A model generated the notes under the pieces. It did not search any database. It was not told the DNA's origin and worked only from the letters and a program-made list of their open reading frames with translations. A stretch of 64,000 bases of DNA. Source: the human T2T-CHM13v2.0 reference genome, Homo sapiens. The position numbers were made by a program, and so were the translations under genes. Positions 6,516 through 64,000 of the stretch are shown piece by piece. The stretch lies in the NCBI RefSeq assembly GCF_009914755.1, contig NC_060925.1; one strand, given 5' to 3'. Numbering within the stretch: the stretch's first letter is position 1; each line of letters begins with the position of its first letter.

Positions 6516-7409
6516 CTTAGAAAGACTTTGTGGGTATACTAATCTAGCCCCTACGATCAGCTAGAGGCAGACGAAAGAATAAAGAATACTGGGACACTGA
6601 CAAAATCAAAGTACATTAGAGTCTAAATTATGTCTCATTTTGAATGCAGAATGTTTTAAATCAGTTTCACCTCATTCTGAACCTAACACTACTTCCCGTA
6701 AATTTTACCAGGATAATACTCTTCATATTTTCTATACAGAAGAAAAAATACTTAACAACTAATGGCGTTTAAAAGCCTTTCTAAGTAATTCGAACAGACC
6801 CCCAGCTTTCCAGGTTAACTAAGAAGTGGAAAAGAGGCATCTGTTATCTCAGCTGAAGAAGTGTAGATAGGAGGCTCCTCTTTTTTTTCTCTTTTTCCAC
6901 CTGAATCTGACCATGGGATTCAAAAGCTTAGTGAGAAGTTACAAAAGTGAGTGCTTTTTTTCTTTTTGAAAGTGATTTCCTATTTCATGAAGGTGCATGA
7001 TAAAGAGAAAACGTTATGAATAAACATGAGATAAAAAAGAGGTCAAAGAATAGCACTACCAAGTCAACAAATGAAGTAACAAAAATCAACAATTTACAAT
7101 GTTACTTTCCCCTAAAAAACTTAAAGAACTTTCTTGTTAAAAGAGAGTAAAACGCTACTTTGCCTAAGAAACTATACATTCTTCACACTAAGCTCTACTT
7201 CTTTTGTGTTTTCTTCTCACAGTGGAGAAATATGTCATATACACAATGGTAGTTTTACAAAGTGGTTGCCCAAATGACTGAATGACACTGAATCTCTCTT
7301 CTGGGTAAATACTGGAGAAGCTTTATTAGTGCCTTCCAGCTCAAGAGAAAACTGAGGTACCTAGAAGCTGAAGCTTAAATAAGTGATGCAAAAACAATTG
7401 AAAAAATAG

Positions 7410-63400: not shown

Positions 63401-63513
63401 AAGACACAGAGTCTAGGCTTAGCTCTGCCACTTACTAGCCAGGTAACTTTGGGCAAGTCACAAATGCATTCTGGGTCTCAAAATCTCTTCACCTGTTTTA
63501 AAAAGTAAATGGA

Positions 63514-63675
63514 AGCCAGGTATGGTGACACGTGCCTGTACTCCTGGCTACTCGGGAAGCTGAGGTGGGAAGATCGCTTGAGCCCAGGAGCTTGAGGCCA
63601 TAGTGCACAATGATTGTGCCTGTAAATGACCAGCCTGGGTAACATAGGACCTGTCTCTTAAAAAATAAATAAATA
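63514..63675 (+). mobile_element. Old Alu monomer (FAM/FRAM-like); its A-tail is the target of the RAP1GDS1-L1 insertion
   Basis: A single diverged Alu arm ending in tctctt aaaaaataaataaata. Confidence 0.8.
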
Positions 63676-63878
63676 GAGACGGAGGTAGAGGGAGGACACA
63701 GAGCCGCGCCGCCTGCACCAGAGACCTTCGCCTCGCCCCGCCGGTTCCTCACCCTCGGGGAGCAACATGGATAATCTCAGTGATACCTTGAAGAAGCTGA
63801 AGATAACAGCTGTTGACAAGACTGAGGATAGTTTAGAAGGATGCTTGGATTGTCTGCTTCAAGCCCTGGCTCAAAATA
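63676..63878 (+). pseudogene. RAP1GDS1: Retrocopied spliced RAP1GDS1 (SmgGDS) 5'UTR plus exons 1-2, carried as an L1 5' transduction
   Basis: A GC/CpG-rich leader precedes an ATG at 63767 encoding MDNLSDTLKKLKITAVDKTEDSLEGCLDCLLQALAQN, the recognised SmgGDS N-terminus. No intron is present. The match stops at c.112 and the ORF ends K-stop at 63883. Confidence 0.9.
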
Positions 63879-63892
63879 AATGATTCAGTGTA

Positions 63893-64000
63893 GGGGGGAG
63901 GAGCCAAGATGGCCGAATAGGAACAGCTCCGGTCTACAGCTCCAGCGTGAGCGACACAGAAGACGGGTGATTTCTGCATTTCCATCTGAGCTTTGAAGAG
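63893..64000 (+). mobile_element. 5' end of a young L1 (L1PA2/L1HS-like) with a spliced 5'UTR (SpIRE 97/622 type); continues past the window
   Basis: GGGGGGAGGAGCCAAGATGGCCGAATAGGAACAGCTCCGG...TTTCCATCTGAG is L1 nt 1-97. It is followed directly by CTTTGAAGAG (L1 ~nt 622) instead of the unspliced GTACCGGG. Confidence 0.92.

What the first reader, a model, noticed from the sequence alone, without database searches (positions are those of the whole stretch)
63893..64000. The L1 5'UTR is itself spliced (SpIRE 97/622), so the inserted RNA shows three splice junctions
Seen: ...TTTCCATCTGAG|CTTTGAAGAG at 63990/63991. Known: in unspliced L1HS/PA2, CTGAG is followed by the donor GTACCG, and CTTTGAAGAG follows the acceptor ...CTGACAG about 520 nt downstream. 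Such spliced integrated elements lose most of the sense promoter, the antisense promoter and ORF0. Inference: the RNA had the RAP1GDS1 ex1/ex2, ex2/linker and intra-L1 introns removed. The copy should be promoter-crippled. Because it is antisense to SRGAP2, loss of the antisense promoter removes the element that would otherwise fire in the SRGAP2 sense direction toward exon 3. Only 10 nt past the junction are visible.
Basis: partly seen in the sequence, partly recalled or inferred. Interest (0 to 1): 0.75.

Follow-up and report, generated by a model that had tools for sequence, protein, structure and literature searches.

The report
Inherited splice scar in hitch-hiking L1
The L1 retrotransposon at the window's end does carry the known "spliced 5'UTR" scar, but it inherited that scar from its parent copy inside the RAP1GDS1 gene, and the whole story is already published.

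Summary
CTGAG|CTTTGAAGAG sits at window 63990/63991. The genome continues AGCAGTGGTTCTCCCAGC, and the ORF1 ATG comes 284 nt later. Three unspliced L1s carry a 524-525 nt block there, bounded by GT...AG.

The source L1 in RAP1GDS1 intron 2 on chr4 already has the identical junction in its DNA, and so does an independent chr10 daughter. The RNA that landed in SRGAP2 therefore lost two introns: exon 1/exon 2, and exon 2 to a cryptic AG 15 nt upstream of the L1. The third junction was templated, having been spliced one retrotransposition cycle earlier.

The locus is a promoter-dead SpIRE that the RAP1GDS1 promoter rescued. This is already in print. Larson 2018 lists the copy as SpIRE(97/622)-6. 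Cell Genomics 2026 (PMC13174262) describes the source, the cryptic acceptor, and the chr10 and three chr1 copies.

- An explicit ~120-nt 3' transduction.
- A third, 5'-truncated daughter on chr2.
- Evidence that the 2018 TSDs for two entries are the source's own TSD carried along.

ORF1 is broken in 5 of 5 copies.

The parts
63660..63673 (+). 5' target-site duplication AAAAAATAAATAAA, in the A-rich tail of an Alu and preceded by tt (TT/AAAA endonuclease site). Base 63674 (T) is listed in print as untemplated.
   Evidence: sequence. The same TSD and cleavage site are given for the paralogous SRGAP2C copy in Table S5 of PMC13174262. The exact extent is ambiguous because the target is A-rich.
63675..63770 (+). 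RAP1GDS1 exon 1 (96 nt), retro-copied. It begins AGAGACGG and ends ...AACATGG.
   Evidence: chr4:101576429-101576524 matches at 98%; on chr4 the exon is followed by GTAAGT.
63771..63878 (+). RAP1GDS1 exon 2 (108 nt), retro-copied.
   Evidence: chr4:101608361-101608469 matches at 100%; the exon is flanked by ...aagcag| and |GTAAGT on chr4.
63767..63883 (+). Upstream ORF of the chimeric RNA. It runs from the RAP1GDS1 start codon for 38 codons (MDNLSDTLKK...ALAQNK) to a TGA inside the linker.
   Evidence: translation.
63879..63893 (+). 15-nt linker AATGATTCAGTGTAG. This is chr4 intron sequence between the cryptic acceptor tctcttttcag| and the source L1, and it contains the source L1's own 5' TSD.
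   Evidence: (L005 1490-1515). The published mapping is chr4:98320417-98320431 in hg38.
63894..63990 (+). L1 5'UTR up to the splice donor (L1 positions about 1-97).
63991..64000 (+). L1 5'UTR resuming just after the acceptor (L1 position about 622). The SpIRE97/622 junction lies between 63990 and 63991.

The element runs on beyond the window. The places below are window-equivalent (L009 coordinate + 63000):
- About 64001-69402: the rest of the L1PA2 (remaining 5'UTR, ORF1, ORF2, 3'UTR and L1 poly(A) of about 15 A). Both ORFs are broken. The longest ORF1-frame run from the ATG is 142 codons and the longest ORF2-frame run is 1012 codons.
- About 69403-69522: a 3' transduction of about 120 nt of chr4 flank. 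It starts with the source's 3' TSD copy (GC)ATGATTCAGTGTAG and ends ...AATAACTGTTTATCTTTT.
- About 69523-69561: a second poly(A), decayed into A/AAAT repeats and merged with the 3' TSD. The exact TSD position is ambiguous.
   Evidence: Junction. Parts outside the window: L009 (chr1:144089001-144098000). Table S5 of PMC13174262 covers the paralogue.

Best explanation
The junction at 63990/63991 is a SpIRE97/622 splice scar, and this L1 copy inherited it rather than acquiring it.

Shown: the order of structures.
1. An L1PA2 RNA was spliced inside its 5'UTR (GT at 98 to AG at 621). It then inserted, in sense orientation, into intron 2 of RAP1GDS1 on chr4, creating a promoter-poor SpIRE with its own TSD.
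2. RAP1GDS1 transcription later ran through it. Exon 1 was spliced to exon 2, and exon 2 to a cryptic AG 15 nt upstream of the L1. The transcript read through the L1 poly(A) signal and was polyadenylated about 105 nt further on in the intron.
3. This chimeric RNA was reverse-transcribed into the A-rich tail of an Alu in the SRGAP2 intron, antisense to the gene.
4. The segmental duplications of SRGAP2 then made the SRGAP2B copy (this window) and the SRGAP2C copy.

Inferred: the element used the host promoter because its own was crippled, and its own or other L1 proteins did the integration. The same chr4 source made at least one more full-length daughter (chr10) and one 5'-truncated daughter (chr2).

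Today the SRGAP2B copy is an inert relic. It lacks the usual L1 promoter region and has broken ORF1 and ORF2.
For: - Source carries the junction: (L005) shows cgttacgtgattctcttttcag|AATGATTCAGTGTAG|GGGGGAGGAGCC...TTTCCATCTGAG|CTTTGAAGAGAGCAG on chr4. One search lists chr4:101635481-101635502 among the 59 exact junction hits.
- Direction chr4 to SRGAP2: the linker and the roughly 120-nt 3' flank are contiguous with chr4 sequence. The SRGAP2 copy holds exons 1 and 2 without introns. Blastn aligns L009 879-6522 to the chr4 locus at 98.0%.
- The chr10 copy is independent. It has TSD GAAAGTCTGTTT, a 5' end 14 nt shorter in exon 1, and a poly(A) site 6-7 nt earlier.
- No intermediate shared by the daughters. 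Of 34 sites where chr4 alone differs, the chr4 state is the derived one at 31, 3 are ambiguous, and at 0 is the state shared by the daughters the derived one.
- The copy is present at the same place in SRGAP2, SRGAP2B and SRGAP2C, with flanks aligned over 8.7-8.9 kb at 98.6%.
- In print: Larson 2018 S1 Table lists SpIRE(97/622)-6 (SRGAP2B), -35 (RAP1GDS1, same orientation) and -79 (chr10). Its Discussion predicts rescue by a cellular promoter. Cell Genomics 2026 / bioRxiv 2025 describe exactly this mechanism and report three long RNA reads joining RAP1GDS1 exons to the intronic L1.
Against: - Nothing in the calls contradicts the parent-daughter order.
- Branch lengths are uneven. Private substitutions are chr10 56, SRGAP2B 41, chr4 34, SRGAP2C 32 and SRGAP2 17, so dates from divergence are unreliable.
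- The polarisation used only six outgroup L1s, and it is meaningless in the non-L1 parts.
- Use of the RAP1GDS1 promoter is inferred from the exon 1 content. The exact transcription start was not checked against any expression data here.
- The 38-codon upstream ORF should hamper ORF1 translation from this RNA. Whether integration was cis or trans is therefore open.
Confidence: 0.95

Rival explanations
1. First reader's version. The source L1 was unspliced, and a single RNA underwent three splicing events (exon 1/exon 2, exon 2/linker, and intra-L1 98-621) before inserting in SRGAP2.
For: The junction coincides with the GT-AG pair that L1 RNA is known to use (Larson 2018). Seen from the window alone, it cannot be told apart from inheritance.
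Against: The chr4 source DNA has the identical junction, and so does the independent chr10 daughter. The rival would need the same rare splice in two separate RNAs plus a matching deletion in the source.
Confidence: 0.03
2. One daughter is the parent of the other (chr10 to SRGAP2, or SRGAP2 to chr10), rather than both coming from chr4.
For: They share the same exon 1-exon 2-linker-SpIRE-3' flank layout.
Against: The SRGAP2 copy carries 14 more nt of exon 1 and 6-7 more nt of chr4 flank than the chr10 copy, so it cannot derive from chr10. Of the 34 sites where chr4 alone differs, at none is the state shared by the daughters the derived one. At 5 of the 8 sites that split the SRGAP2 trio from chr10 plus chr4, chr10 shares the derived state with chr4. 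That argues against chr10 deriving from the SRGAP2 copy.
Confidence: 0.02
3. The 524-nt gap is a DNA-level deletion (for example microhomology-mediated at the repeated AG) and not a splice product.
For: AG is repeated at both edges (CTGAG|GT...ACAG|CT), so the breakpoint is ambiguous by 2 nt in the alignment.
Against: The identical junction is found 59 times in the genome, against 0 for the control. The boundaries are GT...AG. Larson 2018 found 116 such elements and traces them to retrotransposition of spliced L1 mRNA (abstract).
Confidence: 0.01

Closest known systems
SpIRE97/622 (spliced integrated retrotransposed element; Larson et al. 2018, PLoS Biol, PMC5860796)
   Same: It has the same junction (L1 nt 97 joined to 622) and is otherwise full length at about 5.5 kb. 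This very copy is entry SpIRE(97/622)-6, PA2, SRGAP2B, opposite orientation. The 5'UTR is promoter-poor.
   Different: SpIREs are defined as products of retrotransposition of a spliced L1 mRNA and are described as dead ends. Here the junction was templated by a SpIRE parent, so this is a second-generation copy. The table gives 'Transduction: No' with TSDs of 14 nt (TCAT/T) for -6 and 16 nt (ATTT/A) for -79. Those fit the chr4 TSD carried inside the 5' and 3' transductions, not the real target sites.
RAP1GDS1/L1PA2 chimeric insertions by promoter co-option (Cell Genomics 2026;6(5):101165, PMC13174262; bioRxiv 10.1101/2025.02.02.635956)
   Same: It is the same locus family. The paper gives a source SpIRE in RAP1GDS1 intron 2, a cryptic acceptor 15 bp upstream, exons 1 and 2 transduced, one chr10 copy, and three chr1 copies made by segmental duplication. 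It also gives TSDs GAAAGTCTGTTT and AAAAAATAAATAAA. My coordinates and junctions agree.
   Different: The passages and table rows I saw do not describe the 3' transduction in words; it is implicit in their TSD coordinates. They do not list the chr2 5'-truncated copy: 'EIF4E2' and 'chromosome 2' have 0 occurrences in the main text, and 'EIF4E2' has 0 in the 4 supplementary files held. Their table row for chr1 is the SRGAP2C paralogue, not the SRGAP2B copy of this window.
L1 3' and 5' transduction (Goodier 2000, Pickeral 2000, Szak 2002; known to me from the reference list of Larson 2018, and from recall)
   Same: Flanking DNA of the source is carried to the new site. A second poly(A) follows the transduced 3' flank.
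   Different: The 5' part is not contiguous flank. It consists of spliced host exons, which marks host-promoter transcription rather than an upstream start just outside the L1.

Membership tests
SpIRE97/622 | L1 5'UTR position about 97 joined directly to about 622, with nothing in between | tested here: met
   A 524-525 nt block present in 3 unspliced L1s is absent here.
SpIRE97/622 | The deleted block is bounded by GT...AG in unspliced L1s | tested here: met
   GTAC follows CTGAG in 4 of 4 elements. CTGACAG precedes CTTTGAAGAG in 3 of 4; the exact 10-mer was not found in L022.
SpIRE97/622 | Otherwise full-length L1 with ORF1, ORF2, 3'UTR and poly(A) | tested here: met
   About 5.5 kb of L1 is present, with both ORFs interrupted.
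SpIRE97/622 | Integration hallmarks: TSD, endonuclease-type site, poly(A) | tested here: met
   Searches show TT/AAAA and an A-rich TSD. The extent is ambiguous in the Alu tail. It agrees with Table S5 of PMC13174262.
SpIRE97/622 | The junction arose by splicing of the RNA that was integrated at this site (first-generation product) | tested here: not met
   The parent DNA on chr4 already has the junction, so it was templated.
Host-promoter-driven chimeric mRNA/L1 insertion (5' transduction by splicing) | Host exons joined at annotated or canonical splice sites, upstream of the L1, in the same orientation | tested here: met
   GT donors after exons 1 and 2; polypyrimidine tract plus AG before the linker.
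Host-promoter-driven chimeric mRNA/L1 insertion (5' transduction by splicing) | A source L1 lies in an intron of that gene, in sense orientation, downstream of the transduced exons | tested here: met
   The L1 lies 26.9 kb downstream of exon 2 on the same strand. Larson's table says 'RAP1GDS1, Same'. I did not locate exon 3 myself; 'second intron' comes from PMC13174262.
Host-promoter-driven chimeric mRNA/L1 insertion (5' transduction by splicing) | Transcription really starts at the host promoter | not testable with these tools
   This is inferred from the presence of 96 nt of exon 1. RNA reads are reported in print. No expression data were available here.
L1 3' transduction | Source flank downstream of the L1 poly(A) is carried along and followed by a second poly(A) and the true TSD | tested here: met

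The most novel reading that the evidence does not exclude
The RAP1GDS1 SpIRE was a repeatedly active source and not a one-off.
- Besides the published SRGAP2 and chr10 daughters, it left a third germline daughter on chr2 that is probably unlisted. That copy has 142 nt of L1 3' end plus about 205 nt of chr4 flank. Its own TSD is AAAATGCAGAAACTA, and it sits in an intron next to an eIF4E-family exon.
- The three daughters use three different poly(A) sites in the RAP1GDS1 intron.
- The SRGAP2 daughter left before the chr10 one. The source gained about 5 substitutions in between.
- Consequently at least 2 of the 116 catalogued SpIRE97/622 entries are not independent splicing events, and their published TSDs and 'no transduction' calls need correcting.
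Probability: 0.55. Interest if true: 0.3.

Novelty: already known. Interest (0 to 1): 0.15.

Why it matters
As a finding it is ordinary. The junction type has been known since 2018. This exact copy is catalogued, and the promoter co-option story was published in 2025/2026.

The value of the check is a correction. That inheritance is what makes the locus a documented exception to the rule that spliced L1 copies are dead ends.

The small additions are bookkeeping for people who curate L1 source-offspring relations. These are the 3' transduction, the chr2 offspring, and the misassigned TSDs in the 2018 table. They do not change the biology of SRGAP2B.

Tried and rejected
No earlier notes were used.
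- The genome search was busy twice. The same request was answered.
- In the first look at the alignment junction, MAFFT had shifted the gap by the 2-nt AG ambiguity. One search resolved it.
- Dating from divergence was rejected as unreliable. Pairwise differences to chr4 are 66/5619 (SRGAP2), 87/5621 (SRGAP2C), 95/5621 (SRGAP2B) and 99/5622 (chr10), so the branches are clearly unequal. On the SRGAP2 lineage before the duplications, 1 site polarises as derived and 2 more are unresolved. This could mean the insertion came shortly before the first duplication, but rate differences between the loci prevent a firm date.
- No ape genome is available here to test presence or absence.
- I looked for insertion time points in Table S5 of PMC13174262. 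It has no such column.
- I did not test CAGE or methylation because no such data were available.
- The idea that the retro-copied 96 nt of RAP1GDS1 exon 1 could act as a promoter at the new site was considered but not tested.
They are now described inside the last part's text.

Full report
**1. The observation**

One search shows ...atttctgcatttccatctgag|ctttgaagag at the window's end, with the junction between 63990 and 63991. The window's own genome is held, so the sequence past the window could be read (L001). It runs on as agcagtggttctcccagcacgcag..., and the ORF1 start (caaagATGgggaaaaaacag) begins 284 nt after the first base past the junction.

I fetched four unspliced L1s from the same genome (L019-L022). 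CTGAG is followed by GTAC(C/T) in 4 of 4. CTTTGAAGAG is preceded by ...CTGACAG, 524-525 nt downstream, in 3 of 4. In L022 the exact 10-mer was not found within the 1.5 kb fetched.

In an 11-sequence alignment, a block of 524-525 nt is present in the 3 unspliced L1s (L023-L025). It is absent from the five copies of this family and from 3 unrelated spliced L1s (L026-L028).

The exact 22-mer spanning the junction occurs 59 times in the genome, against 0 for the reversed control. Larson et al. 2018 found 116 such elements with a 100-nt probe (passage).

**2. What lies around it**

A search with window 63700-64000 (40 of 1620 candidates scored) returned four full-length matches:
- the window itself;
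- chr1:205.6 Mb at 99%;
- chr1:121.3 Mb at 98%;
- chr10:45.37 Mb at 97%.

It also returned two partial matches on chr4. One is at 101608361-101608469 and covers query 71-179 at 100%. The other is at 101635380-101635502 and covers query 180-301 at 98%. The second chr4 match runs across the L1 junction.

Reading that chr4 locus (L005) gives ...cgttacgtgattctcttttcag|AATGATTCAGTGTAG|GGGGGAGGAGCC...TTTCCATCTGAG|CTTTGAAGAGAGCAGTGG.... So the L1 inside the RAP1GDS1 intron is itself a 97/622 element, and the 15-nt linker of the window copy is the chr4 sequence just upstream of it, behind a polypyrimidine tract and an AG.

Exon 1 maps to chr4:101576429-101576524 at 98% and is followed by GTAAGT. Exon 2 is flanked by ...aagcag| and |GTAAGT.

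The window therefore reads as follows:

| Window position | Feature |
|---|---|
| 63660-63673 | TSD |
| 63674 | T |
| 63675-63770 | RAP1GDS1 exon 1 |
| 63771-63878 | RAP1GDS1 exon 2 |
| 63879-63893 | linker |
| 63894-63990 | L1 positions about 1-97 |
| 63991 onward | L1 from about 622 |

**3. The 3' end (outside the window, L009)**

After the L1 poly(A) come GC ATGATTCAGTGTAG TTGTAGTGC...AATAACTGTTTATCTTTT, then an A/AAAT-rich tract, then unique SRGAP2 intron sequence. The roughly 120 nt after the L1 poly(A) are the chr4 flank of the source. This is a 3' transduction that begins with the source's own 3' TSD.

Blastn aligns L009 879-6522 to the chr4 locus at 98.0%, and L009 689-6516 to the chr10 locus at 97.7%.

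**4.

The source DNA already carries the junction. The RNA that integrated in SRGAP2 therefore had two introns removed, about 31.8 kb and 26.9 kb on chr4. The intra-L1 junction was simply transcribed from the source. It had been spliced one retrotransposition cycle earlier, when the chr4 element was made.

**5. Relations among the copies**

- The three chr1 copies share flanks over 8.7-8.9 kb at 98.6%. This is one insertion that was later copied by the SRGAP2 segmental duplications. The dates of those duplications are recalled from Dennis 2012, which I did not read.
- The chr10 copy has its own TSD (GAAAGTCTGTTT). It starts 14 nt further into exon 1, and its poly(A) site lies 6-7 nt earlier. 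It is a separate event.
- A search with the 3' transduction found 6 places: the five above plus chr2:233046010. Read in L034, the chr2 copy holds the following:
  - 142 nt of L1 3' end, then a poly(A);
  - GAATGATTCAGTGTAG and about 205 nt of chr4 flank, at 96.4% over 361 nt;
  - a second poly(A);
  - its own TSD AAAATGCAGAAACTA at a TT/AAAA site.
- The chr2 copy is a third daughter. It is 5'-truncated, with a poly(A) site about 86 nt further downstream than the SRGAP2 daughter's.
- The chr2 copy lies downstream of an exon that hits Pfam IF4E (E 5e-6, 26.8 bits, below the 28.7 cutoff). The name EIF4E2 is my recollection only.

**6. Site patterns** (5.6 kb; 206 variable gap-free columns)

| Pattern | Sites |
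|---|---|
| chr10 private | 56 |
| SRGAP2B private | 41 |
| chr4 private | 34 |
| SRGAP2C private | 32 |
| SRGAP2 private | 17 |
| SRGAP2 trio versus chr4 + chr10 | 8 |
| SRGAP2B + SRGAP2C shared | 5 |
| all other patterns combined | 13 |

I polarised these against six other L1s.
- Of the 34 chr4-private sites, chr4 is derived at 31, 3 are ambiguous, and at 0 do the daughters share the derived state. No intermediate common to the daughters is indicated.
- Of the 8 trio-versus-rest sites, chr4 and chr10 share the derived state at 5, the trio is derived at 1, and 2 are unresolved. This suggests that the SRGAP2 daughter left before the chr10 daughter.
- Branch lengths are too uneven for dating.

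**7. Coding state**

From the ORF1 ATG, the open frame runs 142 codons (SRGAP2B), 109 (SRGAP2), 208 (SRGAP2C), 129 (chr10) and 270 (chr4). ORF1 is therefore interrupted in 5 of 5 copies. An ORF2-length frame of 1275 codons is open in 1 of 5 (chr10). In SRGAP2B the longest is 1012 codons.

The chimeric leader carries the RAP1GDS1 ATG and a 38-codon upstream ORF that stops in the linker.

**8. What is in print**

Larson et al. 2018 (PMC5860796). I saw passages, supplement 2 part 1 and supplement term hits.
- S1 Table lists SpIRE(97/622)-6 (PA2, chr1:144965102, SRGAP2B, Opp., TCAT/T, TSD 14, transduction No).
- It lists -35 (PA2, chr4:98320362, RAP1GDS1, Same, AATC/A, TSD 12).
- It lists -79 (PA2, chr10:44482732, ATTT/A, TSD 16).
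- The three cleavage sites and TSD lengths fit ATGATTCAGTGTAG, GATTCAGTGTAG and AAATGATTCAGTGTAG. These are all the same chr4 TSD seen in three places. [quoted passage not shown] - Promoter activity was about 7-fold over an empty vector, against about 267-fold for the wild type.

Cell Genomics 2026;6(5):101165 (PMC13174262) and its preprint 10.1101/2025.02.02.635956. I saw preprint passages and its whole section 25. I also saw journal passages, the whole of section 21, and supplement 4 passages and part 1.
- They describe the source SpIRE in RAP1GDS1 intron 2 and the cryptic acceptor 15 bp upstream.
- They describe one chr10 and three chr1 insertions, with their TSDs.
- They report three long RNA reads supporting the chimeric transcript.
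- They call it the first case of a transcriptionally disabled intronic L1 co-opting an external promoter.
- 'EIF4E2' and 'chromosome 2' have 0 occurrences in the main text, and 'EIF4E2' has 0 in the 4 supplementary files held.
- The only paper-library search aimed at this was RAP1GDS1 + LINE-1 + retrotransposition. It found 4 papers, of which 2 were listed after merging versions.
- I did not search older transduction catalogues.

**9. Verdict**

The feature is already known at this exact locus. Interest is low.

The antisense-promoter remark is a reasonable counterfactual. It rests on recalled positions of the antisense promoter and ORF0 within the deleted block, which I did not test.

Noticed in passing
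L034 1343-1723 (T2T chr2:~233045852-233046232): A third, 5'-truncated daughter of the RAP1GDS1 SpIRE. It holds 142 nt of L1 3' end, a poly(A), about 205 nt of chr4 flank and a second poly(A). Its TSD is AAAATGCAGAAACTA (L034 1328-1342 and 1724-1738). It lies downstream of an eIF4E-family exon (L034 149-286). It was not found in the Cell Genomics 2026 text or the supplements I searched.
   Followed up: partly
L009 6403-6418; L012 (reverse strand) near 6820; L034 1499-1514; L013 6384-6407: The SRGAP2 and chr2 daughters keep GAATGATTCAGTGTAG after the L1 poly(A). Today's chr4 source has only GATTCAGTGTAG there. The source's 3' TSD was therefore longer (16-17 nt, reaching into the AG of the cryptic acceptor) when the daughters left, and it has since been eroded.
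   Followed up: partly
window 63879-63893 and L009 6405-6418: The TSDs and 'Transduction: No' entries for SpIRE(97/622)-6 and -79 in Larson 2018 S1 Table fit the source's TSD carried inside the transductions. The true target-site duplications lie further out.
   Followed up: yes
window 63767-63883: The chimeric leader contains the RAP1GDS1 start codon and a 38-codon upstream ORF that ends at a TGA in the linker, 10 nt before the L1. This should reduce translation of ORF1 from the RNA that nevertheless retrotransposed.
   Followed up: partly
L009, L010, L011 (about 5.6 kb of the insertion in SRGAP2B, SRGAP2, SRGAP2C): Private substitutions are uneven among the three paralogous copies: SRGAP2B 41, SRGAP2C 32, SRGAP2 17. 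Only 5 sites are shared by B and C. The duplicated copies have changed faster than the ancestral locus here.
   Followed up: no
window 63497-63674: The insertion went into the A-rich tail of a partial Alu (gccaggtatggtgacacgtgcctgtactcc...aaaaaataaataaa). This is why the TSD cannot be fixed to the base.
   Followed up: no
Table S5 of PMC13174262, row hg38 chr2:169308224-169313831 (MAP3K13 chimera): Another published mRNA/L1 chimera also shows a ...CTGAG|CTTTGAAGAG-type junction in its L1 part. A second spliced L1 with host exons at its 5' end may therefore exist.
   Followed up: no
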